From NCBI GenBank assembly GCA_035472495.1, contig DATIPD010000006.1, forward strand, positions 37,312-101,311: DNA of 64,000 nucleotides, given 5' to 3'. The position numbers and the translations under genes were made by a program. This stretch comes from Pyrinomonadaceae bacterium. Lineage in GTDB: Bacteria; Acidobacteriota; Blastocatellia; Pyrinomonadales; Pyrinomonadaceae. The notes below the pieces were generated by a model. It did not search any database, had not been told where the DNA came from, and was given only the letters and a program-made list of their open reading frames with translations. Shown here piece by piece: positions 22,929-54,022 of this stretch (positions within the stretch are counted from its first letter, which is position 1; every line of letters begins with the position of its first letter).

Positions 22929-22967
22929 CTTGGAAACGCTTGAACTCCATACTGGAGACTCACGACG

Positions 22968-28493: not shown

Positions 28494-28502
28494 GAAAAAT
28501 AT

Positions 28503-28592: not shown

Positions 28593-28593
28593 T

Positions 28594-30560: not shown

Positions 30561-30564
30561 GACT

Positions 30565-30713
30565 AGTGAATAGTGAAATGTGAAAAGTGAAGAGTTTACG
30601 CCGTTCCTCGGAAGCGTCGTTCGGAAACTCGTATTGGAAAGAGTGATTGGTGAGTTGCCAGCACGGAGTCGTTATCCATGAACTCTTCACTATTTACCAT
30701 TTACTTTTTACTG
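30565..30713. repeat. Fam-H (AGTGAA-type) inverted repeat
   Basis: Arm AGTGAATAGTGAAATGTGAAAAGTGAAGAGTT and inverted arm AACTCTTCACTATTTACCATTTACTTTTTACT, about 85 nt apart. The right arm covers the last codons and the stop of panB. Confidence 0.65.
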
Positions 30714-37899: not shown

Positions 37900-37907
37900 C
37901 GAGTAAG

Positions 37908-38036
37908 CAGTAATCAGCAATCAGAAATCAGCAGTCAGCGATCAGCAATCAGCAAGAATACGTTCGCGGCCGGAGAAATATCCATTCTATACTGAGACAT
38001 CCTCCAACTGATTGCTGATTGCTGATTGCTGACTGC
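37908..38036. repeat. Fam-G (AATCAGC-type) inverted repeat
   Basis: Arm of tandem (A/G)ATCAGC units and inverted arm CTGATTGCTGATTGCTGATTGCTGACTGC, in the divergent folK/membrane-gene spacer. Confidence 0.7.
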
Positions 38037-38041
38037 CACCA

Positions 38042-41180: not shown

Positions 41181-41188
41181 TCAGGCGG

Positions 41189-41294
41189 CACGAGCAGGAG
41201 CAGAGGCAGGAATGCGGAAAGCAGATCCGGCATTCTGCTCCAGTGCCTGTAGTTCTCTGAGCAAACAGTTGTAATCTTTGCCTGCTCCTGCCCC
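41189..41294. repeat. Fam-D (CAGGAGCAG-type) inverted repeat
   Basis: GCAGGAGCAG at 41194-41203 pairs with CTGCTCCTGC at 41282-41291, in low-complexity arms. Confidence 0.55.
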
Positions 41295-41298
41295 TTTC

Positions 41299-42500: not shown

Positions 42501-42610
42501 ACAGGAGGCAGGAGCAGGGTCAGGAGGACCGTCGTTTCAAAAAGGTGAAGGGCAGCGAAACGACGCCGTTCGCTGCCCTCACATTTTCTAACTGCCCCTG
42601 CTGCTGCCCC
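42501..42610. repeat. Fam-D (CAGGAGGCAGGAGCAG) inverted repeat enclosing a terminator-like hairpin
   Basis: Arms ACAGGAGGCAGGAGCAGGGTCAGGAGG and CTGCCCCTGCTGCTGCCCC. Confidence 0.55.
42537..42580 (-). terminator. candidate intrinsic terminator of the VWA gene
   Basis: 10-bp stem GGGCAGCGAA/TTCGCTGCCC. On the minus strand a T-run (CCTTTTT) follows after 5 nt. Confidence 0.5.
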
Positions 42611-46675: not shown

Positions 46676-46816
46676 ATCGGAAATCTGAAATCGCAAGTTT
46701 TGAGTTCGAGTTTTGAGATCGAGTATTGAGATTCTGATGCTTGTGATCTGAGATTGGAGATCTGAGGTTGAAATTTGAGATCTGAGATACCTGAGATCTG
46801 AGATCTGAGATCTGAA
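46676..46816. repeat. Fam-I tract of GAGATCT(G) words (tandem and inverted)
   Basis: Includes ...GATCTGAGATTGGAGATCTGAGG... and CTGAGATCTGAGATCTGAGATCTGAAG, ending 10 nt before the first tRNA. Confidence 0.65.
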
Positions 46817-46825
46817 GTTTCACTC

Positions 46826-46911
46826 GCATGCGTGGCCGAGCAGCAAAAGCACCTGACTGTAAATCAGGCGTCATCACGACTTCGTAGGTGCGAGTCCTAC
46901 CGCATGCGCCA
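46826..46911 (+). tRNA. tRNA-Tyr (GTA), long variable arm
   Basis: Acceptor GCATGCG/CGCATGC, anticodon arm CCTGA-CTGTAAA-TCAGG, T arm GTAGG-TGCGAGT-CCTAC (atypical G55), G73 and CCA encoded. The D stem is weak. Confidence 0.75.
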
Positions 46912-46917
46912 ACGGTA

Positions 46918-46993
46918 GTCCAAAGTTCAACGTCGAAAGTCCAAAGTCCGTTTGGGTTACAAGACTTTGGACTTTGGACTCGAGACATTGGAC
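46918..46993. repeat. Fam-A (GTCCAAAG) palindromic hairpin
   Basis: Arm GTCCAAAGTTCAACGTCGAAAGTCCAAAGTC and inverted arm GACTTTGGACTTTGGACTCGAGACATTGGAC, between tRNA-Tyr and tRNA-Trp. Confidence 0.8.
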
Positions 46994-47001
46994 TGGCTTT
47001 G

Positions 47002-47076
47002 AGGGATGTAGGCTAACTGGCAAACCGTCGGTCTCCAAAATCGACTTTCTCGGTTCAAATCCGGGCGTCCCTGCCA
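47002..47076 (+). tRNA. tRNA-Trp (CCA)
   Basis: Acceptor AGGGATG/CGTCCCT (one G:U), anticodon arm TCGGT-CTCCAAA-ATCGA, T arm CTCGG-TTCAAAT-CCGGG, G73 and CCA. One D-stem mismatch. Confidence 0.7.
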
Positions 47077-47089
47077 AATAAACTTTCCT

Positions 47090-47178
47090 GGAAGGCCCGA
47101 CAGTAGAGTGCGTCAAGCAGTCCCGAAAACTGCGGCGGCCAAAAGCCGTGTACGGTTCGACTCCGTAGCCTTCCGCCA
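47090..47178 (+). tRNA. tRNA-Ser (CGA), long variable arm, C33
   Basis: Acceptor GGAAGGC/GCCTTCC, anticodon arm GCAGT-CCCGAAA-ACTGC, long variable arm, T-loop TTCGACT, G73 and CCA. The D arm is atypical. Confidence 0.6.
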
Positions 47179-47181
47179 TTT

Positions 47182-47267
47182 GGAGATGTCGCCTAACTGG
47201 TAAGGCAGCGCCCCGCTAAGGCGCCGGGAGCAATCCTGTGAGCGTTCGAATCGCTCCGTCTCCGCCA
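47182..47267 (+). tRNA. tRNA-Ser (GCT), long variable arm, C33
   Basis: Acceptor GGAGATG/CGTCTCC, D stem GCCT/AGGC, anticodon arm GCGCC-CCGCTAA-GGCGC, T arm GAGCG-TTCGAAT-CGCTC, G73 and CCA. Confidence 0.7.
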
Positions 47268-47271
47268 AAAC

Positions 47272-47347
47272 GGGGTTGTAGCTCAACGTATAGAGCGCCG
47301 GTCTGCGAAGCCGGAGGCTGATGGTTAGAATCCATCCAATCCCACCA
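47272..47347 (+). tRNA. tRNA-Arg (GCG)
   Basis: Acceptor GGGGTTG/CAATCCC, D stem GCTC/GAGC, anticodon arm CCGGT-CTGCGAA-GCCGG, T arm GATGG-TTAGAAT-CCATC (A56), A73 and CCA. Confidence 0.7.
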
Positions 47348-47352
47348 CTTCT

Positions 47353-47426
47353 TCCGAGTTCGTCCAATGGCAGGACGGGTGACTTTGAATCACTAAATCG
47401 GAGTTCGAATCTCTGACTCGGAACCA
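47353..47426 (+). tRNA. tRNA-Gln (TTG)
   Basis: U1:A72 acceptor TCCGAGT/ACTCGGA, D stem GTCC/GGAC, anticodon arm GGTGA-CTTTGAA-TCACT, T arm CGGAG-TTCGAAT-CTCTG, A73 and CCA. Confidence 0.8.
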
Positions 47427-47430
47427 ATAC

Positions 47431-47546
47431 GATTGCGGATTGCAGAATGCTGGTGGATCTTCAATCCAGCTGACGACTGGTTGCTGCCCGACTATTCAAC
47501 AAGAATCGAGTCGACTGAAACAAAATCCGCATCAGCAATCACCAAT
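47431..47546. repeat. Fam-E (GATTGCGG-type) imperfect inverted repeat
   Basis: Left arm GATTGCGGATTGCAGAATGC..., right arm ...AAAATCCGCATCAGCAATCACCAATC. Confidence 0.55.
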
Positions 47547-47620
47547 CCTAAATCGCCAGCTAGAAGAGCGATCGCTTTCTAAGCGGTAGGTCAACAGTTC
47601 GAATCTGTTTAGGGTCTCCA
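47545..47620 (+). pseudogene. degenerate tRNA-Arg (TCT)-like unit
   Basis: 76 nt with good anticodon arm ATCGC-TTTCTAA-GCGGT, T arm AACAG-TTCGAAT-CTGTT and a terminal TCCA. The acceptor and D stems do not pair in the canonical register. Confidence 0.3.
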
Positions 47621-47625
47621 TCTAT

Positions 47626-47703
47626 GGCCACGTAGCCCAATCGGCATGAGGCGCCAGTCTTAGAAACTGGTCAGTGAGAGTTCGAATCTCTCCGTGGCTA
47701 CCA
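47626..47703 (+). tRNA. tRNA with Leu anticodon TAG on a short-variable-arm scaffold
   Basis: Acceptor GGCCACG/CGTGGCT, anticodon arm CCAGT-CTTAGAA-ACTGG, 5-nt variable loop, T arm GAGAG-TTCGAAT-CTCTC, A73 and CCA. Confidence 0.6.
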
Positions 47704-47707
47704 CCAT

Positions 47708-47784
47708 GCTCGCGTGATGCAATCGGCAGACATCGGAGTTTCAAAAACTCTGTTTTCTCCGTTCGAATCGGAGCGCGAGTACCA
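47708..47784 (+). tRNA. tRNA with Leu anticodon CAA on a short-variable-arm scaffold
   Basis: Acceptor GCTCGCG/CGCGAGT, anticodon arm GGAGT-TTCAAAA-ACTCT, 5-nt variable loop, T arm CTCCG-TTCGAAT-CGGAG, A73 and CCA. Confidence 0.6.
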
Positions 47785-47789
47785 ACTGC

Positions 47790-47869
47790 GGCGCGGTACG
47801 CAAATCAAGGCAAAGCGGTCTGACTTAAAATCAGATGTTATGAGAGTTCAATTCTCTCCCGCGCCACCA
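47790..47869 (+). tRNA. tRNA with Leu anticodon TAA on a short-variable-arm scaffold
   Basis: Acceptor GGCGCGG/CCGCGCC, anticodon arm TCTGA-CTTAAAA-TCAGA, 6-nt variable loop, T arm GAGAG-TTCAATT-CTCTC, A73 and CCA. Confidence 0.6.
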
Positions 47870-47875
47870 GGCTCT

Positions 47876-47952
47876 GGCGATGAATGCGAAATGGAAAGCA
47901 GGCTGATTTTCAATCAGTTGATTTGCGGGTTCGAGTCCCGTCATCGCTGCCA
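47876..47952 (+). tRNA. tRNA-Glu (TTC)
   Basis: Acceptor GGCGATG/CATCGCT, anticodon arm GCTGA-TTTTCAA-TCAGT, T arm GCGGG-TTCGAGT-CCCGT, G73 and CCA. Confidence 0.75.
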
Positions 47953-47967
47953 GTAAGCTGGCCGGGC

Positions 47968-47994
47968 GCCCGTGGTCTGGCCGAGCGGTTCTAT
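47968..47994 (+). other. orphan tRNA 5' fragment (acceptor plus class-II-type D arm)
   Basis: GTGGTCTGGCCGAGCGGTTCTA resembles the 5' third of a Ser/Leu-type tRNA. It abuts tRNA-His with no anticodon or T arm. Confidence 0.4.
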
Positions 47995-48070
47995 GTTGGC
48001 CGTGGCCGAGTGGCTGAGGCGCGTGACTGTGACTCACGCTACGAGAGTTCGATTCTCTCCGGTCAACCCA
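47995..48070 (+). tRNA. tRNA-His (GTG) with encoded G-1
   Basis: G-1 opposite C73, acceptor TTGGCCG/CGGTCAA, anticodon arm CGTGA-CTGTGAC-TCACG, T arm GAGAG-TTCGATT-CTCTC, CCA. Confidence 0.75.
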
Positions 48071-48076
48071 ATACCT

Positions 48077-48154
48077 TAGTTTCGAGTTTCAAGTTCCAGG
48101 TTTCAAGGCACAAAGTTTCTGCACTTTGAACCTCCAACTTGGAACTCGAAACTA
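48077..48154. repeat. Fam-K palindromic hairpin (GTTTCGAG/CAAGTTCC words)
   Basis: Arm TAGTTTCGAGTTTCAAGTTCCAGGTTTCAAGGC and inverted arm GCACTTTGAACCTCCAACTTGGAACTCGAAACTA. Confidence 0.7.
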
Positions 48155-48159
48155 TTCCT

Positions 48160-48234
48160 GGAACTGTGGCCGAGAGGTGAGGCACTTGGTTGTCAACCAA
48201 GCCGATGACGGTTCGAGTCCGTTCAGTTCCGCCA
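48160..48234 (+). tRNA. tRNA-Asp (GTC)
   Basis: Acceptor GGAACTG/CAGTTCC, anticodon arm CTTGG-TTGTCAA-CCAAG, T arm GACGG-TTCGAGT-CCGTT, G73 and CCA. Confidence 0.8.
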
Positions 48235-48244
48235 TCTGTCTGGA

Positions 48245-48301
48245 GAGACATTCCTGTCTGTCCGCCGTTTTTTGCGGGACAGGCAAGAATGCCTGTCCTA
48301 C
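48245..48301. repeat. Fam-F (GACAGGAATG/CCTGTCCTAC) hairpin
   Basis: CATTCCTGTCTGTCCGC pairs with GCGGGACAGGCAAGAATG. A second copy lies at 51052-51112. Confidence 0.7.
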
Positions 48302-48304
48302 CTC

Positions 48305-48380
48305 GCTTCCGTAACTTAACTGGCAAAGTGTTGGTCTCTTAAACCAGAAGATGTCGGTTCGACGCCGACCGGAAGCACCA
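48305..48380 (+). tRNA. tRNA-Lys (CTT)
   Basis: Acceptor GCTTCCG/CGGAAGC, D stem ACTT/AAGT, anticodon arm TTGGT-CTCTTAA-ACCAG, T arm GTCGG-TTCGACG-CCGAC, A73 and CCA. Confidence 0.85.
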
Positions 48381-48387
48381 AATTTTT

Positions 48388-48460
48388 TGCGGAGAGAATG
48401 GGTATTCAAGTAGGTCTCATAAACCTTCCTTCGTCAGTTCAACTCTGGCCTCCGCAACCA
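48388..48460 (+). tRNA. tRNA with CAT anticodon (elongator Met or Ile2-type), atypical D arm
   Basis: U1:A72 acceptor TGCGGAG/CTCCGCA, anticodon loop CTCATAA on a 4-bp stem, T arm GTCAG-TTCAACT-CTGGC, A73 and CCA. The D arm is non-canonical. Confidence 0.5.
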
Positions 48461-48527
48461 ATCTCGTAGCGCTGAATCCCCTCCAACGACAACGCAAATT
48501 ATCAGTTTGCGTTACAGAACGTTTTAT

Positions 48528-48604
48528 TCAAGCGACCGATGTGGGCTGTCGGTGTCCGCCTGTTAAGCGGAACGTCGTGGGTTCGAGTCCCACCGCTTGA
48601 GCCA
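48528..48604 (+). tRNA. tRNA-Asn (GTT)
   Basis: Acceptor TCAAGCG/CGCTTGA, anticodon arm TCCGC-CTGTTAA-GCGGA, T arm GTGGG-TTCGAGT-CCCAC, G73 and CCA. Two extra nt lie between the D and anticodon arms. Confidence 0.65.
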
Positions 48605-48619
48605 AAACTCCTTGTTCTT

Positions 48620-48697
48620 GCTCGCGTACCGGTCTCCGCTTCTAACGGAGTAGCCGTAACTGGAAAGATGCGGGTTCAACTCCTGCCGCGAGCACCA
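48620..48697 (+). tRNA. aberrant tRNA-Arg (TCT)-like gene with D-arm-like sequence after the anticodon arm
   Basis: Acceptor GCTCGCG/CGCGAGC, A73 and CCA, anticodon arm CTCCG-CTTCTAA-CGGAG, T arm GCGGG-TTCAACT-CCTGC. No D arm is in the normal place; TAGCCGTAACTGGAAAG sits in the variable position. Confidence 0.35.
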
Positions 48698-48701
48698 CTT
48701 T

Positions 48702-48794
48702 CTTGGCGTAGCACAAATGGCAGTGCGGCAGGCTTATACCCTGTGAGCTCCAGATTAGAGCGCGATCCAGGTTCGAATCCTGGCGCCAAGACCA
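48702..48794 (+). tRNA. tRNA with TAT anticodon (AUA reader) on a long-variable-arm scaffold
   Basis: Acceptor CTTGGCG/CGCCAAG, D stem GCAC/GTGC, anticodon arm GCAGG-CTTATAC-CCTGT, 22-nt variable arm, T arm CCAGG-TTCGAAT-CCTGG, A73 and CCA. Confidence 0.55.
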
Positions 48795-48798
48795 CAAC

Positions 48799-48877
48799 CG
48801 ATTTCGGATTGACGATTGCAGATTGCGGATTGAGGCAACTGATTAATCGGAGATCCGCGATCGCCAATTCCCAATCG
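48799..48877. repeat. Fam-E (GATTGCGG-type) palindromic hairpin
   Basis: Arm GATTTCGGATTGACGATTGCAGATTGCGGATTG and inverted arm AATCGGAGATCCGCGATCGCCAATTCCCAATCG. Confidence 0.7.
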
Positions 48878-48882
48878 TTTCG

Positions 48883-48957
48883 GCTCCTATGGCGTAACTG
48901 GCAACGTAGCGGACTTTTAATCCGCGGTTCAGAGTTCGAGTCTCTGTGGGAGCACCA
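48883..48957 (+). tRNA. tRNA-Lys (TTT)
   Basis: Acceptor GCTCCTA/TGGGAGC, anticodon arm GCGGA-CTTTTAA-TCCGC, T arm CAGAG-TTCGAGT-CTCTG, A73 and CCA. Confidence 0.85.
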
Positions 48958-49059
48958 ATTGATTGCGGCTTTCGGAATGCGGATTTCGGATTTGAAAACA
49001 AGCGAAAACTATTAAGTCTTCAACTTCGCAATCCGAGTCCCAGCAATCCGCAATCGAAA
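48958..49059. repeat. Fam-E palindromic hairpin
   Basis: Arm AATTGATTGCGGCTTTCGGAATGCGGATTTCGGATTT and inverted arm CTTCGCAATCCGAGTCCCAGCAATCCGCAATCGAAA. Confidence 0.7.
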
Positions 49060-49060
49060 C

Positions 49061-49133
49061 GGCCGCGTGATGTAACGCAACATGCTCGCCCGATTAGCGA
49101 GTCTTCCGGGTTCAAATCCTGGCGCGGCTACCA
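49061..49133 (+). tRNA. tRNA-Ile (GAT), C33
   Basis: Acceptor GGCCGCG/CGCGGCT, D stem ATGT/ACAT with a 6-nt loop, anticodon arm CTCGC-CCGATTA-GCGAG, T arm CCGGG-TTCAAAT-CCTGG, A73 and CCA. Confidence 0.6.
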
Positions 49134-49184
49134 ACAATTCGAATTCCCCAACTTTTCAACTATTCTTAAGAAAGGAGAAAGCAA

Positions 49185-50363
49185 ATGCCTTACGAAAAGC
49201 TACCTATCGGTGGCGCCCGCAACGAGATTCTCTCGTGGGCCAACCACGACTTCAGCATCGAGGAACAGTCGATGTTGCGCAACGTTTCGCGATTGCCTTG
49301 TCTGTTCAAACATGTGGCGCTGATGCCTGATGCACACTTGGGCAAAGGCAGCATGGTTGGTTCAGTCATCGCTACGAAACAAGCGGTGATTCCGGCAACG
49401 GTCGGCGTCGACATCGGCTGCGGCATGATGGCGGTGAAGACACCGTTCAAGAGCGGCATCCTCGACGGAAAGTTGAAGGAGCTGCGCCTCGCGATCGAAG
49501 AAACAATTCCGGTCGGCTTCAACGCGTACAAAGAATCGGTTGACGAGTCTTCGTACTGGGACGGCTGGAAGGAATTTGGTGAACTGCATCAGGGCGTGCA
49601 AAGTCGGAAAGTGAAAGCGATGACGCAGCTGGGCACGCTTGGTGGCGGCAATCATTTCATCGAAGTTTGTCTGGACACAGAAAACTTCGTTTGGTTGATG
49701 CTCCACTCAGGTTCACGCAATATCGGCAAGGAGTTGGCAGAACGTCACATCTCGACAGCCAAGGGCTTGTGGCAACTGAATGAACTGCCTTCACCCGATC
49801 TTGCTTACTTCGTGCAGGGCACGCCGGAATTTGCGGCGTACTGGAAAGACTTGAAGTGGGCCCAGGGTTACGCGATGAAGAATCGCGAAATCATGATGAC
49901 GCGACTGTTACAGGTCTTCAACAAGTTGTTCAATCATCGTCAGCCCTTCAAGCCGGAACTTCAGGTTAACTGCCATCACAATTACGTTGCGCTCGAGGAG
50001 CATTACGGCGAGAAAGTTTTCGTCACCCGCAAGGGCGCAATCAATGCGGACAAAGACGCATTCGGCATTATTCCCGGCTCGATGGGCGCGAAATCGTTCA
50101 TCGTGCAAGGCCGCGGACTGGCGGAGAGTTTTAATTCCTGCTCTCACGGCGCTGGTCGCAAGATGTCGCGCGGTGCAGCCAAGCGAACTTTTAATAAGGA
50201 CGACCTGGCTCGACAAACTGCGGGCGTCGAATGTCGCAAAGACGTAGGCGTGCTGGATGAAATTCCTGGCGCTTACAAAGACATCAAAGCGGTGATGCGC
50301 AACCAGAGCGATCTGGTAAAGATCATTGCCGAGATCAAACAAGTGGTGTGTGTGAAAGGCTAG
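49185..50363 (+). CDS. rtcB: RNA-splicing/repair ligase RtcB
   Basis: 392 aa with RtcB motifs GVDIGCGM, GGGNHFIE, HSGSRNIG, NCHHNY, PGSMG and SCSHGAGR. RBS AAAGGAGAAA lies upstream. Confidence 0.92.
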   Translation: MPYEKLPIGGARNEILSWANHDFSIEEQSMLRNVSRLPCLFKHVALMPDAHLGKGSMVGSVIATKQAVIPATVGVDIGCGMMAVKTPFKSGILDGKLKELRLAIEETIPVGFNAYKESVDESSYWDGWKEFGELHQGVQSRKVKAMTQLGTLGGGNHFIEVCLDTENFVWLMLHSGSRNIGKELAERHISTAKGLWQLNELPSPDLAYFVQGTPEFAAYWKDLKWAQGYAMKNREIMMTRLLQVFNKLFNHRQPFKPELQVNCHHNYVALEEHYGEKVFVTRKGAINADKDAFGIIPGSMGAKSFIVQGRGLAESFNSCSHGAGRKMSRGAAKRTFNKDDLARQTAGVECRKDVGVLDEIPGAYKDIKAVMRNQSDLVKIIAEIKQVVCVKG

Positions 50364-50430
50364 TCCAAAGTCCAACGTCCAAAGTCAGGAATCGTCAAAC
50401 AGACTTTGGACATTGGACTCGAGACTTTGG
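50363..50430. repeat. Fam-A palindromic hairpin
   Basis: Arm GTCCAAAGTCCAACGTCCAAAGTC and inverted arm GACTTTGGACATTGGACTCGAGACTTTGG. Starts at the rtcB stop codon. Confidence 0.8.
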
Positions 50431-50441
50431 GGTCTGTCTTC

Positions 50442-50515
50442 CGGGGTGTGGTGTAACGTGAGCATCCGAGTCCTGGGAACTCGTGGCGACAGTTCAATTC
50501 TGTCCTCCCCGACCA
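50442..50515 (+). tRNA. tRNA-Pro (TGG), C33
   Basis: C1:G72 acceptor CGGGGTG/CTCCCCG (one mismatch), anticodon arm CGAGT-CCTGGGA-ACTCG, T arm GACAG-TTCAATT-CTGTC, A73 and CCA. Confidence 0.65.
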
Positions 50516-50521
50516 AATCCA

Positions 50522-50579
50522 GTCCAAAGTCCAACGTCCAAAGTCAGGATCATCAAACAGATATTGGACCTTGGACTTT
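50522..50579. repeat. Fam-A palindromic hairpin
   Basis: Arm GTCCAAAGTCCAACGTCCAAAGTC and a shorter inverted arm ATATTGGACCTTGGACTTT. Confidence 0.75.
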
Positions 50580-50585
50580 CCTCCC

Positions 50586-50662
50586 GCATCGTTGGTCCAG
50601 AGGGTTCAAGACACGGCGTTGCCAACGCTGAGACACCGGTTCGAATCCGGTACGATGCTCCA
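50586..50662 (+). tRNA. tRNA-Gly (GCC)
   Basis: Acceptor GCATCGT/ACGATGC, anticodon arm CGGCG-TTGCCAA-CGCTG, T arm ACCGG-TTCGAAT-CCGGT, U73 and CCA. Confidence 0.85.
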
Positions 50663-50672
50663 ATCAATCCTC

Positions 50673-50749
50673 GTCCAAAGTCCAACGTCCAAGGTCCAAA
50701 GCCAAGAATCGATGAACAGACTTTGGACCTTGGACGTTGGACATCGGAC
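50673..50749. repeat. Fam-A palindromic hairpin
   Basis: Arm GTCCAAAGTCCAACGTCCAAGGTCCAAAGCC and inverted arm GACTTTGGACCTTGGACGTTGGACATCGGAC. Confidence 0.8.
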
Positions 50750-50755
50750 TAAGAC

Positions 50756-50832
50756 GCTTCCGTAGCTCAATTTGGAAGAGCGCGACGCTTCGAACGTCGA
50801 GGTTGTGGGTTCAAGTCCCGCCGGGAGCCCCA
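50756..50832 (+). tRNA. tRNA-Arg (TCG)
   Basis: Acceptor GCTTCCG/CGGGAGC, D stem GCTC/GAGC, anticodon arm CGACG-CTTCGAA-CGTCG, T arm GTGGG-TTCAAGT-CCCGC, C73 and CCA. Confidence 0.85.
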
Positions 50833-50836
50833 ATCC

Positions 50837-50970
50837 ATTGGCGATTTCCGATTGCCAATTGCCGATTTTCCTCACTTCAAACTTGCGTGTCCCAAAAGAA
50901 CAGCCTCACTGTTCAAACCAAAAAGAACATACACGCTAATCGGCAATTGCCAATCGGCAATCGACAATTT
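50837..50970. repeat. Fam-E (GATTGCCAATTGCCG) inverted repeat with about 65-nt loop
   Basis: Arm ATTGGCGATTTCCGATTGCCAATTGCCGATTTT and inverted arm CTAATCGGCAATTGCCAATCGGCAATCGACAATTT. Confidence 0.7.
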
Positions 50971-50973
50971 CCT

Positions 50974-51048
50974 GCGGGAGTGATGTAGCTGGCAACATGC
51001 AAGTCTTCCAAACTTGCTTCGAGAGTTCGAATCTCTCCTTCCGCTCCA
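50974..51048 (+). tRNA. tRNA-Gly (TCC)
   Basis: Acceptor GCGGGAG/CTTCCGC, anticodon arm CAAGT-CTTCCAA-ACTTG, T arm GAGAG-TTCGAAT-CTCTC, U73 and CCA. Confidence 0.85.
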
Positions 51049-51051
51049 AAT

Positions 51052-51112
51052 GTAGGACAAGCATTCCTGCCTGTCCTCTCTAACCAAAGAAGGACAGGAA
51101 TGTCTGTCCTAC
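51052..51112. repeat. Fam-F hairpin
   Basis: GTAGGACAAGCATTCCTGCCTGTCCT ... AGGACAGGAATGTCTGTCCTAC. Confidence 0.7.
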
Positions 51113-51115
51113 CTC

Positions 51116-51191
51116 GCGCGCGTCGCCAAGCGGCTAAGGCGCTGGATTGCAAATCCAGTATTCGTGAGTTCGAGTCTCACCGCGCGCTCCA
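51116..51191 (+). tRNA. tRNA-Cys (GCA)
   Basis: Acceptor GCGCGCG/CGCGCGC, anticodon arm CTGGA-TTGCAAA-TCCAG, T arm GTGAG-TTCGAGT-CTCAC, U73 and CCA. Confidence 0.85.
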
Positions 51192-51198
51192 CACTCCA

Positions 51199-51275
51199 GT
51201 CCAAAGTCCAAGGTCCAAAGTCCAAGGTCAAGAACCGCAAGACAGACTTTGGACGTTGGACGTTGGACCTTGGAC
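51199..51275. repeat. Fam-A palindromic hairpin
   Basis: Arm GTCCAAAGTCCAAGGTCCAAAGTCCAAGGTC and inverted arm GACTTTGGACGTTGGACGTTGGACCTTGGAC. Confidence 0.8.
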
Positions 51276-51299
51276 TACTCTACGAAGGGAGGTGCCGTG

Positions 51300-51878
51300 A
51301 TGGCACTTGATGGCAGAGTTCTGCTGCTAAATCAAACCTACGAGCCGCTCGGCACCGTCAGTGTGGCCCGAGCAATAGTAATGACTTTCAAGAACAGCGT
51401 CTTCGTCGAGGAATGGGACGGCGATCGCGTTCTTCATTCGGCCCGGGAGGAATTCCCGGTGCCTTCAGTAATTCGCCGACGCACTTACATCAACGTGCGG
51501 CGCCGGCGTGAACAGTCAGGGATGAAGCGACTCCGCATCTACATGCGTGACAAGTTTCGTTGTCAGTATTGCGGCGACAAGAAGACCCTGGCTGAACTAA
51601 CGCTCGATCACATTCTGCCGCGTTCGCGTGGCGGCGATAACTCGCCGCTCAACGTAGTGACAGCATGCACCGCGTGCAACAACCGCAAGTCTAACCGGAC
51701 ACCGGCGGAGGCACGCATGCCTTTGCTGACGTCGCAGTCGGCGTTGCGGGTAAAGCTCGAACGCGTTGTGCTTTGTCACTACGCCGAGGCGCGCGCTGAG
51801 TGGCGCAAGTACCTGTTCATGGACGTGCATGACGATCGCGACGTGATGGACAGGGTGGAGCGCGAAAGACGCGCGTAA
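51300..51878 (+). CDS. HNH endonuclease
   Basis: 192 aa from the ATG at 51300, with RBS GAAGGGAGG upstream. HNH motif CQYCG...LTLDHILPRSRGGDNSPLNVVTACTACNNRKSNRTP. The track start at 51249 lies inside a repeat. Confidence 0.8.
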   Translation: MALDGRVLLLNQTYEPLGTVSVARAIVMTFKNSVFVEEWDGDRVLHSAREEFPVPSVIRRRTYINVRRRREQSGMKRLRIYMRDKFRCQYCGDKKTLAELTLDHILPRSRGGDNSPLNVVTACTACNNRKSNRTPAEARMPLLTSQSALRVKLERVVLCHYAEARAEWRKYLFMDVHDDRDVMDRVERERRA

Positions 51879-51882
51879 ATTC

Positions 51883-51988
51883 ATTGCCGATTGCTGAGCG
51901 GATTGCCGATTGCCAATTGCCGGTTTCCGATTGCCTTCAATCGAACAGGCTTTTTCAAATCGGCATTTTGTACCGGGAATCGGCAATG
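51883..51988. repeat. Fam-E inverted repeat
   Basis: Arm ATTGCCGATTGCTGAGCGGATTGCCGATTGCCAATTGCCGG... and inverted arm AAATCGGCATTTTGTACCGGGAATCGGCAATG. Confidence 0.65.
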
Positions 51989-51993
51989 CGTTC

Positions 51994-52065
51994 GGTCGGA
52001 TAGCTGAGAAGGATTAGCGTGGGTCTGAAAAACCCGAGAGGTTGGTTCGATTCCAACTCCGACCG
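51994..52065 (+). tRNA. tRNA-Phe (GAA), no encoded CCA
   Basis: Acceptor GGTCGGA/TCCGACC, anticodon arm TGGGT-CTGAAAA-ACCCG, T arm GTTGG-TTCGATT-CCAAC, G73, followed by CCG. Confidence 0.75.
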
Positions 52066-52072
52066 CCGAACC

Positions 52073-52150
52073 GAAGGATGAAGGATGAAGGATGAAGGCT
52101 GAAATGAAGTGTTTTGTTTCATCCTTCATCCTTCCGCCCTCATCCTTGAT
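52073..52150. repeat. Fam-C (GGATGAAG) palindromic hairpin
   Basis: Arm GAAGGATGAAGGATGAAGGATGAAGGCTGAAATGAAG and inverted arm TTTCATCCTTCATCCTTCCGCCCTCATCCTTGAT. Confidence 0.8.
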
Positions 52151-52155
52151 TTCCC

Positions 52156-52231
52156 GCCCGAGTAGCTCAATTGATGGAGCGCTGGTCCTACAAACCAGAG
52201 GTTGAAGGTTTAAGTCCTTCCTTGGGCACCA
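52156..52231 (+). tRNA. tRNA-Val (TAC), C33
   Basis: Acceptor GCCCGAG/CTTGGGC, D stem GCTC/GAGC, anticodon arm CTGGT-CCTACAA-ACCAG, T arm GAAGG-TTTAAGT-CCTTC (T56), A73 and CCA. Confidence 0.7.
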
Positions 52232-52235
52232 AATG

Positions 52236-52304
52236 ACAGGAGGCAGGCGGCAAAGCAGGAGGCAGTAGGTTTTGCCTGTCCCTGCACCTGCCTCCTGCTC
52301 CTGA
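52236..52304. repeat. Fam-D (CAGGAGGCAG) palindromic hairpin
   Basis: GACAGGAGGCAGGCGGCAAAGCAGGAGGCAGTAGG ... CCTGTCCCTGCACCTGCCTCCTGCTCCTG. Confidence 0.7.
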
Positions 52305-52309
52305 TCTTC

Positions 52310-52392
52310 CGGGGCGTGACTCATCTCAGCAGAACGTGGACTGCCTGGGAGCGTGGAGTTAGGAGAGGCGCGCCAGCCTCACGCCCCGACCA
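52310..52392 (+). ncRNA. tRNA-sized structured element ending in A-CCA (not a canonical cloverleaf)
   Basis: 10-bp terminal helix CGGGGCGTGA/TCACGCCCCG followed by ACCA. Internal hairpins TCTCAGCAG-AACGTGGA-CTGCCTGGGA and GAGGC-GCGCCA-GCCTC. Occupies a tRNA slot between two hairpin repeats. Confidence 0.3.
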
Positions 52393-52397
52393 GTACT

Positions 52398-52478
52398 GAA
52401 GGATGAGGGATGAAGGATGAGGGATGAACCTCCAATTCCCGTACCTTCATCCCTCCGCCCTCATCCTTCATCCCTCAT
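52398..52478. repeat. Fam-C palindromic hairpin
   Basis: GAAGGATGAGGGATGAAGGATGAGGGATGAA ... TTCATCCCTCCGCCCTCATCCTTCATCCCTCAT. Confidence 0.8.
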
Positions 52479-52482
52479 TTCT

Positions 52483-52557
52483 GGGGCTATGATCTAACGG
52501 CCATGATGCCTGCCTTGCAAGCAGGACGTAGAGGTTCGACTCCTCTTAGCTCCACCA
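52483..52557 (+). tRNA. tRNA-Ala (TGC)
   Basis: Acceptor GGGGCTA/TAGCTCC with the G3:U70 identity pair, anticodon arm CCTGC-CTTGCAA-GCAGG, T arm AGAGG-TTCGACT-CCTCT, A73 and CCA. Confidence 0.85.
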
Positions 52558-52568
52558 AAATACAGAAA

Positions 52569-52656
52569 GCAGCAGGCAGGAGCAGTAGGCAGCAGTTGAG
52601 AGTCACGGTCTAGAACCAGGAACTCCCCTGCCGACTGCCGCTGCCTCCTGCTCCTG
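52569..52656. repeat. Fam-D palindromic hairpin
   Basis: GCAGCAGGCAGGAGCAGTAGGCAGCAG ... CTGCCGACTGCCGCTGCCTCCTGCTCCTG. Confidence 0.7.
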
Positions 52657-52663
52657 ACTTTTC

Positions 52664-52743
52664 GGCGATGTAGCTCAACTGGATAACAGAGCACCGGTCT
52701 TGTAAACCGAACGATAAGGGTTCGACTCCCTTCATCGCCTCCA
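52664..52743 (+). tRNA. tRNA-Thr (TGT)
   Basis: Acceptor GGCGATG/CATCGCC, D stem GCTC/GAGC with a 12-nt loop, anticodon loop CTTGTAA (first stem pair C-A mismatch), T arm AAGGG-TTCGACT-CCCTT, U73 and CCA. Confidence 0.75.
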
Positions 52744-52787
52744 CAACCGGACCTGAAGACACGGAGACGGGAGACACGTAGACGAGC

Positions 52788-53237
52788 ATGCAGCAAAAGA
52801 TATTTCGGTTGTCGTTCGACGGGCGAAGAATGCAAATCGTAAATTCATGTTCATTCGGTTTGTCAGCGGCGAAATTGATCAGGCTTCTCGTTTCGGCGGG
52901 TCTTTTCCAGGCTGCCTCCGAACTCAGGTGGCGCGACGGCCTACCTGACTACGAATTCGACGCGCTCATCGGACTGAGAGATTGGTTCAACGCTAATCTC
53001 GAATCGCCCTTTGACCACCTGCCGCGAGCGAAATGCTATGACCGAGCAATTTGCTGGTTTAAGCCTGCGGCTCGCGAACACTTGGTTCGAGCGAGAGAAC
53101 TAGTCACAATTCTTGAAAGAAACGATGTCTTGATTTGGACAATCAGATCCCGAAGGGTTGGCTACATTTATTACGAAGACGAAACACAGGTTTTGGCAGA
53201 ACCATTTAGTGATGTCAGACCAATTTGCAGGAGGTAA
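52788..53237 (+). CDS. hypothetical protein
   Basis: 149-aa ORF directly after the last tRNA. I recognise no motif. Closely followed by the DIP1984-family ORF. Confidence 0.4.
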   Translation: MQQKIFRLSFDGRRMQIVNSCSFGLSAAKLIRLLVSAGLFQAASELRWRDGLPDYEFDALIGLRDWFNANLESPFDHLPRAKCYDRAICWFKPAAREHLVRARELVTILERNDVLIWTIRSRRVGYIYYEDETQVLAEPFSDVRPICRR

Positions 53238-53242
53238 TAGAA

Positions 53243-53698
53243 ATGAAACTAGCAGAAGCTCTAATTCTACGAGCTGATTGTCAGAAGCGTTTTGCGCAAG
53301 TAAAAGCTAGGCTGCTGCTTAACGCGCGCGTCCAGGAAGGCGACCAGCCGGCAGAAGATCCGCAGAAGTTGATTACCGAAACGGAACGCCTGGCCGATGA
53401 GCTGGTTGATTTGATCAAGCGTATCAATCGCACCAACTCTGCAACAGTCGTTGACGTTGGCAAAACAATTTCTGACGTGCTTGCTGACCGTGACGTGCTC
53501 GGCTTGCGTCGTAGCGCGTACAACGAACTGGCGCAGAACGCGTCGATTGCCTACGCGCGAGTGACGCGAACGGAAATCAAATACGTTTCGACGGTGAAGG
53601 TAGTTGAGATTCAGAAGCGGGCGGATGAGCTGGCGAAGAACTATCGCGAGCTCGACGCGCAAATTCAGGAGCTCAACTGGAAGACTGAACTGCTCTAA
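53243..53698 (+). CDS. DIP1984-family (septicolysin-like) protein
   Basis: MKLAEALILRADCQKR..., INRTN and ...ELNW..EL match the DIP1984 family pattern as I recall it. RBS AGGAGG lies upstream of the ATG at 53243. Confidence 0.6.
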   Translation: MKLAEALILRADCQKRFAQVKARLLLNARVQEGDQPAEDPQKLITETERLADELVDLIKRINRTNSATVVDVGKTISDVLADRDVLGLRRSAYNELAQNASIAYARVTRTEIKYVSTVKVVEIQKRADELAKNYRELDAQIQELNWKTELL

Positions 53699-53950
53699 AC
53701 GTTCAGCGCTTGATTTAATGCAGTCGGTAGCCTGATGAACAAAAGCGAGCACAACCCGCCAACTGGGCAAGTTGGAAAAGCGCGAAAGCGCTCCACTGGT
53801 GATGTGCAGGGGCGTACATCAGCGGGTTCGATCCCCGCCGTACAACTCATGCCCAGCAAAGTGACAAGCGCAATGAGCAAAGTAAAAGTAACTACCGCGT
53901 GCTGATTTGTTTGTTTGGTGAGGGTGGGTAAGGGGAACTGCATTGCATTA

Positions 53951-54022
53951 CCAAATCCAAAGTTCAGGCCAACGTCCGAAGTTGAAAATAAGCAAACAGA
54001 CTTTGGACCCTGGACGTTGGAC
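53951..54022. repeat. Fam-A palindromic hairpin (last copy, outside the array)
   Basis: CCAAATCCAAAGTTCAGGCCAACGTCCGAAG ... GACTTTGGACCCTGGACGTTGGAC, 12 nt upstream of the AAA+ gene start. Confidence 0.7.

What the first reader, a model, noticed from the sequence alone, without database searches (positions are those of the whole stretch)
46676..54022. Array blocks are punctuated by modular palindromic hairpins built from tandem short words
At least 16 hairpins of 55-135 nt separate tRNA blocks. Each has arms composed of 2-4 tandem 6-9-nt words, and the second arm is the inverted complement. Five word families alternate: GTCCAAAG (6 copies), GATTGC(C/G)G (5), GGATGAAG (2), CAGGAGCAG (2), GACAGGAATG (2), plus a GTTTCGAG type. 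The architecture is constant while the sequence differs. They could be RNase III/E processing sites, transcription attenuators insulating tRNA blocks, or recombination or mobility modules. They are not CRISPR repeats.
Basis: seen in the sequence. Interest (0 to 1): 0.65.

Follow-up and report, generated by a model that had tools for sequence, protein, structure and literature searches.

The report
Heptamer-built palindromic repeats filling tRNA-array spacers
The hairpins between the tRNA genes are real, but they are copies of a genome-wide family of small palindromic repeats with arms of tandem 7-base units, which have settled in the array's spacers and are absent from the same spacers in related bacteria.

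Summary
Eighteen hairpins of 51-132 nt, with 18-41 paired bases, plus two direct-repeat tracts lie in the spacers of a 27-tRNA array that also carries rtcB and an HNH gene. The host is a Pyrinomonadaceae (Acidobacteriota) chromosome. One correction: the "6-9 nt words" are all exactly 7 nt, apart from one nested-palindrome family.

The hairpins are not specific to the array. The same families sit between housekeeping genes in this window, in other soil metagenome contigs and in phage contigs. Orthologous arrays in relatives have the same spacers empty (1-10 nt), or filled with a different family.

Families have fixed arm polarity, shared irregular units and non-homologous loops. Variable unit positions do not co-vary, and the sense strand does not fold better than the antisense strand.

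My best reading is a REP/MITE-like, proliferating palindromic repeat class that colonises permissive transcribed spacers. It is strongly enriched in tRNA arrays. Once transcribed, the stems probably act as RNase III targets or exonuclease barriers, but tRNA maturation does not need them.

No mobilising enzyme was found and no RNA data exist. Novelty: a new variant of a known kind.

The parts
46826..52743 (+). tRNA array (host context): 27 tRNA genes, all on the + strand. 26 of 27 encode the 3' CCA.
49185..50363 (+). rtcB (RNA ligase) embedded in the array
   Evidence: PF01139, E 7e-122; homologues 86-94% identical in Pyrinomonadaceae MAGs
51249..51878 (+). HNH endonuclease gene embedded in the array (probable ATG at 51291)
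46700..46820 (.). Direct tandem tract of about 17 degenerate TGAGATC heptamers upstream of tRNA-Tyr. It self-pairs weakly because AGATCT is itself a palindrome.
   Evidence: z -2.6
46916..46995 (.). GTCCAAA-family hairpin, Tyr>Trp spacer
   Evidence: (z -6.3)
47430..47555 (.). GATTGCG-family hairpin with a 66-nt apical insert, Gln>Leu spacer. A degenerate tRNA remnant follows it.
48077..48154 (.). GTTTCGA-family hairpin, His>Asp spacer
   Evidence: (z -8.3)
48242..48298 (.). GGACAGG/GAATG nested-palindrome hairpin (no period 7), Asp>Lys spacer
48799..48877 (.). GATTGCR-family hairpin, Ile(tat)>Lys spacer
48959..49057 (.). GGATTKC/GATTGCG-family hairpin, Lys>Ile(gat) spacer
50362..50430 (.). 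GTCCAAA-family hairpin. It starts inside the rtcB stop codon (TAG|TCCAAAG). rtcB>Pro spacer.
   Evidence: (I14)
50521..50579 (.). GTCCAAA-family hairpin, Pro>Gly spacer
50673..50749 (.). GTCCAAA-family hairpin, Gly>Arg spacer. The orthologous copy is in L009; the site is empty in L016.
   Evidence: (z -8.2)
50837..50968 (.). GATTGCC-family hairpin with a 70-nt apical insert, Arg>Gly spacer
   Evidence: I5; z -7.3; a copy with the same arms and a different loop lies elsewhere in the same sample
51052..51112 (.). GGACAGG/GAATG nested-palindrome hairpin, Gly>Cys spacer. It is absent from related strains, where 3 nt (TTT) stand in its place.
   Evidence: (z -7.2)
51198..51276 (.). GTCCAAR-family hairpin, Cys>HNH spacer
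   Evidence: I4; z -7.0
51882..51988 (.). GATTGCC-family hairpin, HNH>Phe spacer
   Evidence: (z -5.2)
52068..52153 (.). GGATGAA-family hairpin carrying the family's irregular TTCCGCC unit, Phe>Val spacer
   Evidence: I6; z -8.2
52237..52303 (.). CAGGAGG/GGCAGGC-family hairpin, after tRNA-Val
52397..52477 (.). GGATGAR-family hairpin carrying the CTCCGCC irregular unit, before tRNA-Ala
   Evidence: I2; z -5.9
52563..52656 (.). GGCAGSA-family hairpin, Ala>Thr spacer. The site is empty in L005, L011, L013 and L016.
   Evidence: (I19)
52758..52785 (.). Direct GGAGACR heptamer tract after tRNA-Thr, with no hairpin
   Evidence: z -0.13
53956..54021 (.). Decayed GTCCAAA-family hairpin just upstream of the AAA-ATPase gene
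13805..13875 (.). GGATGAA-family hairpin outside the array, between the tryptophan dioxygenase and kynureninase genes
21362..21532 (.). Composite palindrome: GCCAAGA heptamer outer arms and CCGCAGATTAC inner arms. Between the L-PSP and AhpC genes.
22863..22977 (.). GAGTCTG-heptamer hairpin between the MobA-like and FAD-binding subunit genes
28501..28593 (.). CGCGGAT-type hairpin between the molybdopterin and 2Fe-2S subunit genes
30564..30713 (.). AGTGAAA-heptamer hairpin that fills the panC-panB spacer
37894..38038 (.). CAGCAAT-heptamer hairpin between the divergent folK (HPPK) gene and a 564-aa gene
41183..41295 (.). CAGGAGC-type hairpin between the convergent SLFN/AlbA_2 and HI0933-like genes
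42507..42608 (.). GGCAGGA-type hairpin downstream of the 414-aa ORF (42610-43854, - strand), in its spacer with the HI0933-like gene
10833..10865 (-). Solo arm of four GTCCAAN units, lying in frame inside the C-terminal domain of an AMP-binding ligase gene

Best explanation
The hairpins are members of a diverse class of short interspersed palindromic repeats. Each arm is 3-5 tandem heptanucleotide units, and the second arm is the inverted copy of the first. The class is abundant in Pyrinomonadaceae. At least the GGATGAA family also occurs in high-GC environmental contigs and in phage contigs.

They behave like REP/MITE-type non-autonomous repeats:
- Copies of a family share a unit sequence, a fixed arm order and family-specific irregular units.
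- The apical loop turns over freely.
- Copies appear at non-orthologous sites.
- Orthologous sites are occupied in some genomes and empty in others.
- Individual genomes show bursts of particular families.

They survive only in short non-coding gaps where they break nothing. A co-transcribed tRNA array offers about 30 such gaps, so it accumulates them. They typically leave about 5 nt of the original spacer on each side.

Inferred, not shown: once transcribed within the array precursor, the 18-41-bp stems would be cut by RNase III and would block 3' exonucleases, so they would incidentally chop the precursor into blocks. The hairpin directly after the rtcB stop codon may have been kept for mRNA 3'-end protection. 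The spreading mechanism (a transposase acting in trans, or template switching and gene conversion) is not identified.
For: **Period 7 is specific to the lineage**
- The window has 26 period-7 runs and none for periods 4-6 or 8-11.
- In 735 kb of acidobacterial loci there are 243 period-7 runs, against 1-25 for any other period.
- In 714 kb from other taxa there are 24, of which 15 are in one Microcoleus locus.
- About 80% of runs have an inverted partner within 160 nt.

**The hairpins are not confined to the array**
- About ten hairpins of the same kind sit between housekeeping genes in the window. Gene orientations there are tandem, convergent and divergent.
- 51 of 87 GTCCAAA copies in soil metagenome contigs have no tRNA within 120 nt.

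**They are optional in the array**
- 345 tRNA-tRNA spacers are bimodal: 129 are under 20 nt and about 125 are 70-120 nt.
- The Tyr>Trp, Phe>Val, Ala>Thr, Gly>Arg and Lys>Ile spacers are 1-10 nt in some MAGs and 80-125 nt in others.
- L016 has 34 tRNAs and essentially no hairpins.
- Related strains in other soils lack the 51052-51112 hairpin.

**Copies of a family share descent**
- GTCCAAA copies in five different spacers share the loop AGGAATCG..AAACAGAC.
- GGATGAA copies share the irregular unit GGCGGAA/TTCCGCC. It appears in this window, in L010, L014 and L019, and in contigs of GC 0.58-0.68.
- Arm order is fixed within a family: GGATGAA-first 14:1, GTTTCAA 12:0, GATTGCC 10:0, GTCCAAA 8:0.
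- In viral contigs there are 24 GGATGAA..TTCATCC sites and none in the reverse order.

**Families burst within genomes**
- Hairpins in the same array share a family in 21-29% of pairs, against 7% between genomes. L046 is dominated by GGATTTT.

**No sign of sense-strand RNA selection**
- The + strand fold is the more stable in 42 of 99 hairpins and the - strand fold in 57.
- G-U pairs number 175 on the + strand and 248 on the - strand.
- The variable 7th unit position pairs no more often than chance: 24/71 observed, 20.3 expected.

**Other points**
- They are not terminators, REPs or attC sites.
- Other palindromes have inserted into the conserved leader in single lineages.
Against: - No transposase or other mobilising gene was found. 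The only search was a crude motif scan of the fetched loci.
- No target-site duplication is visible at filled versus empty sites.
- Loops of orthologous copies are unrelated. An ordinary MITE would not show that.
- Enrichment in arrays is very strong: 1.23 against 0.09 runs per kb, and 37-41% of GTCCAAA copies lie next to tRNAs. Passive tolerance may not fully explain this.
- In 35 of 36 tRNA-adjacent GTCCAAA copies the loop points the same way as the tRNA.
- A hairpin starts within 11 nt of the rtcB stop codon in roughly 24 of 40 loci, while the family differs. That looks like selection for a hairpin at this position.
- The taxonomy of the high-GC contigs is unknown.
Confidence: 0.58

Rival explanations
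1. The hairpins are selected RNA elements of the array operon. They act as RNase III/E cleavage sites or 3'-exonuclease barriers that cut the long precursor into blocks and stabilise the rtcB and HNH messages. The sequence family is free to change as long as a long stem stays at that place.
For: - Run density is about 14-fold higher in arrays than in flanking DNA.
- 23 of 63 distinct GTCCAAA copies lie next to tRNAs, although an array is well under 1% of a genome.
- Stems never interrupt a tRNA and leave a median 5 nt on each side.
- The post-rtcB and post-HNH positions are almost always occupied while the family differs.
- The loop is co-oriented with the tRNAs in 35 of 36 copies.
- Phage copies sit in intercistronic gaps just ahead of ribosome-binding sites.
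Against: - Orthologous tRNA-tRNA junctions are empty in many relatives, and one 34-tRNA array has almost none.
- The sense strand does not fold better than the antisense strand and has fewer G-U pairs.
- There is no covariation at variable positions.
- The same elements lie between divergent genes and in both orientations in tandem protein-gene contexts, 6:5.
- The GTCCAAA census pattern was derived from array copies and counts orthologous loci repeatedly. This inflates both the enrichment and the orientation bias.
Confidence: 0.2
2. The hairpins arise in place and do not move. Replication slippage, which favours 7-nt units in some lineages, expands a short seed. Fold-back or template-switch synthesis then creates the inverted arm. 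Similar families in different places would be convergent products of the same mutational bias.
For: - Heptamers are the known over-represented long-unit SSR class in bacteria (PMC4692102, citing Mrazek 2007).
- 20% of runs are direct-only tracts.
- Arms still pair at registers shifted by 7 or 14 nt: 0.53-0.56 and 0.45-0.50, against 0.66 in the native register.
- L010 has a minimal GTTTCGAAAC seed where L009 has a full GTTTCAA hairpin.
- In L005 the inserted palindrome's outer stem includes an inverted copy of flanking leader sequence.
- No target-site duplication and no transposase were seen.
Against: - Family-specific irregular units (GGCGGAA/TTCCGCC) and loop motifs are shared between unrelated sites and between genomes of very different GC content.
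- Arm order within a family is fixed, for example 24:0.
- Families burst within single genomes.

Independent slippage would not reproduce these features.
Confidence: 0.12
3. The units are DNA-level or single-strand binding sites for a protein that reads one heptamer per module, for example a nucleoid protein, a replication or segregation protein, or a cold-shock-type protein. The inverted arrangement would reflect dimeric or head-to-head binding rather than hairpin formation.
For: - The six core positions of the GTCCAA unit are conserved across 71 distinct copies. The 7th position varies freely and is not compensated.
- Polarity is fixed.
- Three units span 21 bp, which is two helical turns (inference).
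- CspB binds heptamer repeats with one protein per unit (discussed in PMC4679880).
Against: - There are at least 60 different unit consensus sequences. One protein could not read them all.
- Sites are optional at orthologous positions.
- No candidate gene is linked to them.
Confidence: 0.08

Closest known systems
REP / BIME elements and the 'TIR repeat' families linked to RAYT/TIRYT tyrosine transposases (Di Nocera et al. 2013, PMC3733652)
   Same: - Both are short, interspersed, extragenic palindromes.
- Both lie mostly downstream of genes or between co-directional and convergent genes.
- Abundance differs sharply between related genomes.
- Some copies lie inside genes.
- Both are thought to be transcribed and to act as RNA stem-loops.
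- That paper describes an Acidobacteria-specific TIRYT group with long terminal inverted repeats.
   Different: - REPs are 20-40 bp with 5-13 bp stems and a GTAG or CGTC tag. Here stems are 18-41 bp and arms are tandem 7-nt units.
- The tags are absent: GTAG 0/99; CGTC 4/99 against 3.6 expected.
- No RAYT or TIRYT gene was found near any copy (weak test).
Heptanucleotide tandem repeats of bacteria: cyanobacterial STRR, Xanthomonas GGGAATC and Beggiatoaceae/cyanobacterial TAACTGA (PMC4692102, PMC4679880)
   Same: - The period is exactly 7 nt.
- Location is intergenic.
- Abundance is lineage-specific.
- Length varies between close relatives.
- Occasional inverted arrangements are reported.
- Distribution across phyla is unexplained.
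   Different: - The published cases are mainly long direct arrays of one unit, as in the Microcoleus locus L044. Here about 80% are short inverted pairs, that is hairpins.
- There are dozens of unit families here.
- Each family has fixed polarity.
- They are strongly associated with a tRNA array.
- None of the units found here appears in the searchable literature.
Correia/NEMIS elements of Neisseria and ERIC elements of enterobacteria (recalled from my own knowledge, not checked here)
   Same: Both are MITE-like palindromes inserted in transcribed intergenic regions. Their RNA hairpins are cleaved by RNase III or change mRNA stability. This is the best analogue for what these stems would do in the array transcript.
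   Different: - Correia elements have defined 26-bp terminal repeats, a TA target duplication and a conserved interior.
- Here the arms are modular heptamer arrays, the interior is not conserved and no duplication is visible.
[quoted passage not shown] 2021, PMC8421152)
   Same: The host locus fits. It has 27 co-oriented tRNA genes covering nearly all amino acids, an HNH endonuclease gene and rtcB, all behind one conserved promoter and leader.
   Different: That paper reported Acidobacteria as having only small 'accretive' arrays, and it does not describe palindromic spacer elements.

Membership tests
REP (GTAG/CGTC-tagged repetitive extragenic palindromes) | Size 20-40 bp with a stem of 5-13 bp | tested here: not met
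   Elements are 51-132 nt. The median stem is 28 bp.
REP (GTAG/CGTC-tagged repetitive extragenic palindromes) | An unpaired GTAG or CGTC tetranucleotide at one end | tested here: not met
   GTAG 0/99. CGTC 4/99, against 3.6 expected by chance.
REP (GTAG/CGTC-tagged repetitive extragenic palindromes) | Association with a RAYT (Y1/HUH) transposase gene | tested here: inconclusive
   The motif scan of all fetched loci found none. That regex is crude, and no whole genome could be examined.
MITE (miniature inverted-repeat transposable element) | Terminal inverted repeats shared by the copies of a family | tested here: met
   Arms, their polarity and their irregular units are conserved within families.
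MITE (miniature inverted-repeat transposable element) | Target-site duplication flanking the insert | tested here: not met
   None is visible at filled versus empty orthologous sites. The sequences compared are diverged, so the test is weak.
MITE (miniature inverted-repeat transposable element) | A parent insertion sequence with the same ends | not testable with these tools
   This needs complete genomes. Only 20-kb loci were available.
Heptanucleotide SSR / STRR | Tandem repeats of a 7-nt unit in intergenic DNA | tested here: met
   period 7 only.
Heptanucleotide SSR / STRR | Direct (head-to-tail) arrays of one unit | tested here: not met
   About 80% of runs are paired with an inverted copy within 160 nt.
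CRISPR array | One constant direct repeat alternating with unique spacers, plus cas genes | tested here: not met
   The repeats are inverted, belong to more than six families and alternate with tRNA genes. No cas domains appear in the ORFs scanned.
Integron attC sites | RYYYAAC ... GTTRRRY core sites at the ends of an imperfect palindrome, with an intI gene | tested here: not met
   0 of 99 hairpins have the core pair. No integrase appears among the ORFs scanned.
Intrinsic (Rho-independent) terminator | A GC-rich stem followed directly by a U tract | tested here: not met
   0 of 99 have 6 or more T in the 9 nt after the stem. The scan finds 13 sites against 10.9 +/- 3.5 in shuffles, and none is at a heptamer hairpin on the transcribed (+) strand; two minus-strand candidates fall inside the 51052-51112 nested palindrome.
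Any Rfam RNA family | A score at or above the family's gathering threshold | tested here: not met
   Only tRNA passes. The hairpins give far sub-threshold matches to generic miRNA-precursor models.
tRNA L-array (host locus) | A long co-oriented tRNA gene array with linked HNH and rtcB genes | tested here: met
   definition from PMC8421152.

The most novel reading that the evidence does not exclude
Heptamer-unit palindromes may be an undescribed, cross-phylum class of mobile elements of soil bacteria and their phages. Their modular arms (N x 7 nt, fixed polarity, free 7th base) would be read unit by unit by an unknown machinery, for example an Acidobacteria-type TIRYT tyrosine transposase or another single-strand or hairpin-specific enzyme. 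That machinery would preferentially insert next to structured DNA such as tRNA genes and the tips of existing hairpins. This would explain the extreme enrichment in the array and the nested copies.
Probability: 0.25. Interest if true: 0.75.

Novelty: new variant of a known kind. Interest (0 to 1): 0.55.

Why it matters
Small interspersed palindromes shape operon expression, genome plasticity and assembly quality. They are well studied only in proteobacteria and a few other groups.

This case is a large, diverse class in a dominant but poorly studied soil lineage. Its architecture is simple and easy to search for: inverted arrays of 7-nt units with fixed polarity. It ties two puzzles together: why heptamers are the favoured long repeat unit in bacteria, and how palindromic repeats spread.

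The tRNA array works as a natural trap with about 30 comparable insertion sites across dozens of genomes. That makes gain, loss and replacement rates directly measurable.

The practical lesson is a caution. The punctuation of the array by hairpins should not be read as a designed processing code.

Tried and rejected
- **CRISPR, attC, intrinsic terminator and REP membership:** each failed a defining feature.
- **Rfam:** no family matches the hairpins or the leader.
- **RNA evidence:** no RNA-seq run holds the locus. Only soil DNA metagenomes do.
- **Stop codons in all three frames:** this holds for GGATGAA but not for GTCCAAA or GATTGCG (my reading of the sequences), so I dropped it.
- **Short-range copying between neighbouring spacers:** adjacent hairpins share a family no more often than non-adjacent ones in the same array, 21% against 29%.
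- **Compensatory evolution of stems:**
  - Deviations from the unit consensus are correlated between arms.
  - The clean test on 71 GTCCAAA copies shows no covariation at the variable position.
  - I therefore do not claim selection for pairing.
- **Autonomous element with heptamer arms:** a strict regex search gave only uninformative 'solo arms'. A Y1-transposase motif scan of all loci found nothing.
- **Heptamer repeats in a cyanobacterial L-array:** the Microcoleus rtcB loci hold no tRNA array, so I could not compare.
- **ORF-overlap statistic for the viral contigs:** unreliable in high-GC DNA, so I discarded it.

Full report
**Locus and organism**

The window holds 27 tRNA genes, all on the + strand, between 46826 and 52743. 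Rfam confirms 22 of them at gathering threshold and a 23rd, Ile-gat, in the E-value search. Embedded in the array are rtcB (49185-50363, PF01139, E 7e-122) and an HNH endonuclease gene. A DUF6847 gene and an AAA ATPase gene follow.

The rest of the window is ordinary chromosome. It carries panB, panC, folK, kynureninase, tryptophan dioxygenase and xanthine-dehydrogenase-type subunits.

RtcB has hundreds of homologues at 86-94% identity. The named ones are from Pyrinomonadaceae (Acidobacteriota). A soil-metagenome contig is 100% identical to 45914-50702.

The locus fits the 'L-array' type of tRNA operon, which is linked to HNH and rtcB genes in cyanobacteria (PMC8421152). 26 of 27 tRNAs encode their CCA end.

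**Checking the observation**

The inverted-repeat search finds the hairpins at the stated places. I count 18 hairpins between 46916 and 54021. They are 51-132 nt long with 18-41 paired bases.

Of 20 spacers tested, 19 fold better than dinucleotide-preserving shuffles (z -2.6 to -8.3). The GGAGACR tract after tRNA-Thr does not.

The main correction is the unit length. Every tandem word has period 7. The window has 26 period-7 runs and none for periods 4-6 or 8-11. The GGACAGG type is the exception. It is a nested palindrome with no period 7. Ten junctions in the array have no hairpin at all, with spacers of 3-13 nt.

**The hairpins are not specific to the array**

Elsewhere in the window, hairpins of the same build fill the gaps between housekeeping genes:
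- 13805-13875, a GGATGAA copy with the same irregular unit as the array copies
- 21362-21532
- 22863-22977
- 28501-28593
- 30564-30713, which fills the panC-panB spacer
- 37894-38038, between divergent genes
- 41183-41295, between convergent genes
- 42507-42608

A solo arm of four GTCCAAN units lies in frame inside an AMP-binding ligase gene.

In the source sample, other contigs at the same depth carry copies of the array families. One has the arms of the 50837-50968 hairpin with a different loop.

**Comparison with homologous arrays**

A scan with RtcB returned 80 loci, and about 36 of them are acidobacterial. Many carry the same array in the same gene order.

Period-7 runs are the signature of this lineage. 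The 735 kb of acidobacterial loci hold 243 period-7 runs, against 1-25 for any other period. The 714 kb from other taxa hold 24, of which 15 are in one Microcoleus locus.

The 345 tRNA-tRNA spacers are bimodal. 129 are shorter than 20 nt and about 125 are 70-120 nt. Among the 192 spacers of at least 50 nt, 90 have a period-7 autocorrelation of 0.45 or more, against 0-5 for every other period.

Orthologous spacers differ between genomes:
- Tyr>Trp is 90 nt here (GTCCAAA) and 114 nt in L005 (GATTGC). It is 6-9 nt in six other arrays.
- Phe>Val is 88-174 nt in six arrays. Five of them carry GGATGAA and L012 carries GTTTCGA. It is 6-7 nt in three arrays.
- Lys>Ile(gat) holds six different fillings, or a single base.
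- L016 has 34 tRNAs, and most of its tRNA-tRNA junctions are 1-16 nt. The whole locus holds one period-7 run.
- L002 and L003 have lost almost all the tRNAs. They keep the leader, rtcB and a heptamer hairpin after rtcB.

At tRNA-tRNA junctions, positions are not conserved. After the rtcB stop codon, and after the HNH gene, a hairpin is nearly always present while its family changes.

**Anatomy across 99 array hairpins**

- The median stem is 28 bp, with a median 5 nt of unpaired spacer on each side.
- About 80% of period-7 runs have an inverted partner within 160 nt.
- Arms still pair, less well, when shifted by one or two units. The Watson-Crick fraction is 0.66 in register, 0.53-0.56 at a shift of 7, 0.45-0.50 at a shift of 14, and about 0.2-0.3 at other shifts.
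- The sense strand is not favoured. The + strand fold is the more stable in 42 hairpins and the - strand fold in 57. G-U pairs number 175 on the + strand and 248 on the - strand.
- In 71 distinct GTCCAAA copies the six core positions are conserved. The variable 7th position pairs no more often than chance: 24/71 against 20.3 expected, 23/71 against 27.1, and 31/71 against 27.7.

What is conserved is therefore the unit, not the base pair. I see no evidence that pairing itself is under selection.

**Evidence that copies of a family share descent**

- GTCCAAA copies in five different spacers of this array, and the orthologous L009 copy, share a loop motif, AGGAATCG..AAACAGAC.
- GGATGAA copies share an irregular unit, GGCGGAA in the 5' arm and TTCCGCC in the 3' arm. 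It is present in this window, in L010, L014 and L019, and in IMG/VR contigs of GC 0.58-0.68. Loops of the orthologous Phe>Val copies are unrelated.
- Arm order is fixed within families: GGATGAA-first 14:1, GTTTCAA 12:0, GGATTTT 12:3, GATTGCC 10:0, GTCCAAA 8:0. The 5' arm has more G than C in 85 of 96 elements, and in 40 unit classes against 14.
- An independent scan of viral contigs found 24 sites of the form GGATGAA..TTCATCC and none in the opposite order.
- Two of those contigs encode terminase, portal and capsid proteins, so they are phage contigs.
- Within one array, 21-29% of hairpin pairs share a family, against 7% between genomes. L046 shows a burst of GGATTTT.
- Other, non-heptamer palindromes have inserted into the otherwise conserved leader in single lineages.

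**Distribution relative to genes**

Period-7 runs are 14 times denser in arrays than in their flanks, at 1.23 against 0.09 per kb.

A metagenome scan for GTCCAAA hairpins with the family loop end gave 87 hits in contigs of median GC 0.533. 36 lie within 120 nt of a tRNA gene and 51 do not. After removing identical cores, the split is 23 against 40.

In tRNA contexts the loop points the same way as the tRNA in 35 of 36 cases. In protein-gene contexts the hairpins lie in tandem gaps in either orientation (6:5) or in convergent gaps (5). None of the 16 cases with both neighbours called is in a divergent gap.

Enrichment at tRNA junctions is therefore real. Two caveats apply. The search pattern came from array copies, and the same orthologous loci recur across samples.

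**What the hairpins are not**

- No hairpin has a T-rich tail. The terminator scan finds no more sites than shuffles.
- REP tags are absent, as are attC core sites.
- No Rfam family matches.
- The repeats are inverted, belong to many families and alternate with tRNA genes, so this is not a CRISPR array.
- None of the unit sequences appears in the searchable literature.

**Interpretation**

The best-supported reading is a REP/MITE-like class of proliferating palindromic repeats with modular heptamer arms. They settle in any short non-coding gap that tolerates them, and a co-transcribed tRNA array offers many such gaps. Shown here:
- the architecture
- the lineage-specific period 7
- presence or absence at orthologous sites
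- family signatures and fixed polarity
- occurrence outside arrays and in phage contigs
- the lack of sense-strand RNA signatures

Inferred:
- That the transcribed stems are cut by RNase III and hinder 3' exonucleases, as reported for Correia/NEMIS hairpins (my own knowledge).
- That the post-rtcB hairpin has been retained for message stability.
- That spread uses a transposase acting in trans. Di Nocera et al. describe an Acidobacteria-specific group of TIR-associated tyrosine transposases (PMC3733652), which is an obvious candidate, but I found none.

The strength of the tRNA-array enrichment and the conserved post-ORF position keep a functional, exapted role alive as the main rival. In-place slippage plus fold-back synthesis remains possible for the origin of new families, and for the period of 7.

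**Known relatives and novelty**

Heptamers are the known over-represented long SSR unit (PMC4692102). Heptamer direct repeats are described in cyanobacteria, Xanthomonas and Beggiatoaceae (PMC4692102, PMC4679880). Short extragenic palindromes are also well known (PMC3733652).

The following combination does not appear in the literature I could search:
- inverted arrays of 7-nt units
- dozens of families with fixed polarity
- free loops
- presence in phage contigs
- concentration in a tRNA array

I rate it a new variant of a known kind, of moderate interest.

Noticed in passing
window 46140-46680: A promoter-like site (TTGACAG-N17-TATACA) is followed by a non-coding leader of about 500 nt upstream of the array. 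The leader is conserved at 73-89% identity in 18 acidobacterial loci, including loci that have lost the tRNAs and keep only rtcB. It has no Rfam match. It may be a regulatory or structured RNA of the rtcB/tRNA operon.
   Followed up: partly
L005 8570-10144: In one relative a Ro60/TROVE-type gene lies just downstream of the array. Together with rtcB, this recalls the bacterial Rsr-Y RNA-RtcB RNA-repair modules.
   Followed up: no
window 10833-10865 (- strand gene 10661-12364): Four GTCCAAN units lie in frame inside the C-terminal domain of an AMP-binding (acyl-CoA ligase-type) gene. They encode part of an extra ...KSVQSPMSKVQSS... stretch.
   Followed up: partly
window 48702-48794: tRNA-Ile(UAU) is 93 nt long with a long extra arm, which is unusual for an isoleucine tRNA. 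The same long form (88-96 nt) recurs in at least eight related arrays.
   Followed up: no
window 47558-47625; 48619-48694; 52305-52392; 53780-53850: These are degenerate or non-canonical tRNA-like sequences in the longer spacers. 47558-47609 scores 28.9 bits against the tRNA model, just under the threshold of 29. 48619-48694 has an acceptor stem, a T arm and ACCA, which ARAGORN missed.
   Followed up: partly
window 51994-52067: tRNA-Phe is the only array tRNA without an encoded CCA (GCC|G). The GGATGAA hairpin begins 7 nt after its 3' end. L013 shows the same state, while other relatives keep CCA.
   Followed up: no
L177, L210 (IMG/VR contigs): Contigs with terminase, portal and capsid genes (GC about 0.6) carry GGATGAA hairpins in intercistronic gaps. 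In L177 two of them lie directly ahead of ribosome-binding sites.
   Followed up: partly
L012 8595-8682; L005 1101-1186; L011 Lys>Ile spacer; L013 rtcB>Pro spacer; L003 3912-4136: Other palindrome families without period 7 are shared between MAGs, for example GCACAGACTTTAGTCTGTGC and GGTAGCGACCGGG. They insert into the same kinds of gaps, including the conserved leader.
   Followed up: partly
L002 11180-11345: A very large heptamer palindrome with about 12 GTGCTTK units per arm follows rtcB in a 7.49-Mb genome. That genome has lost all but two tRNAs of the array.
   Followed up: no
window 45951-45980: A canonical-looking intrinsic terminator (GC-rich stem followed by TTTCGCTTTT) lies just upstream of the array leader. 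It is conserved in L003.
   Followed up: no
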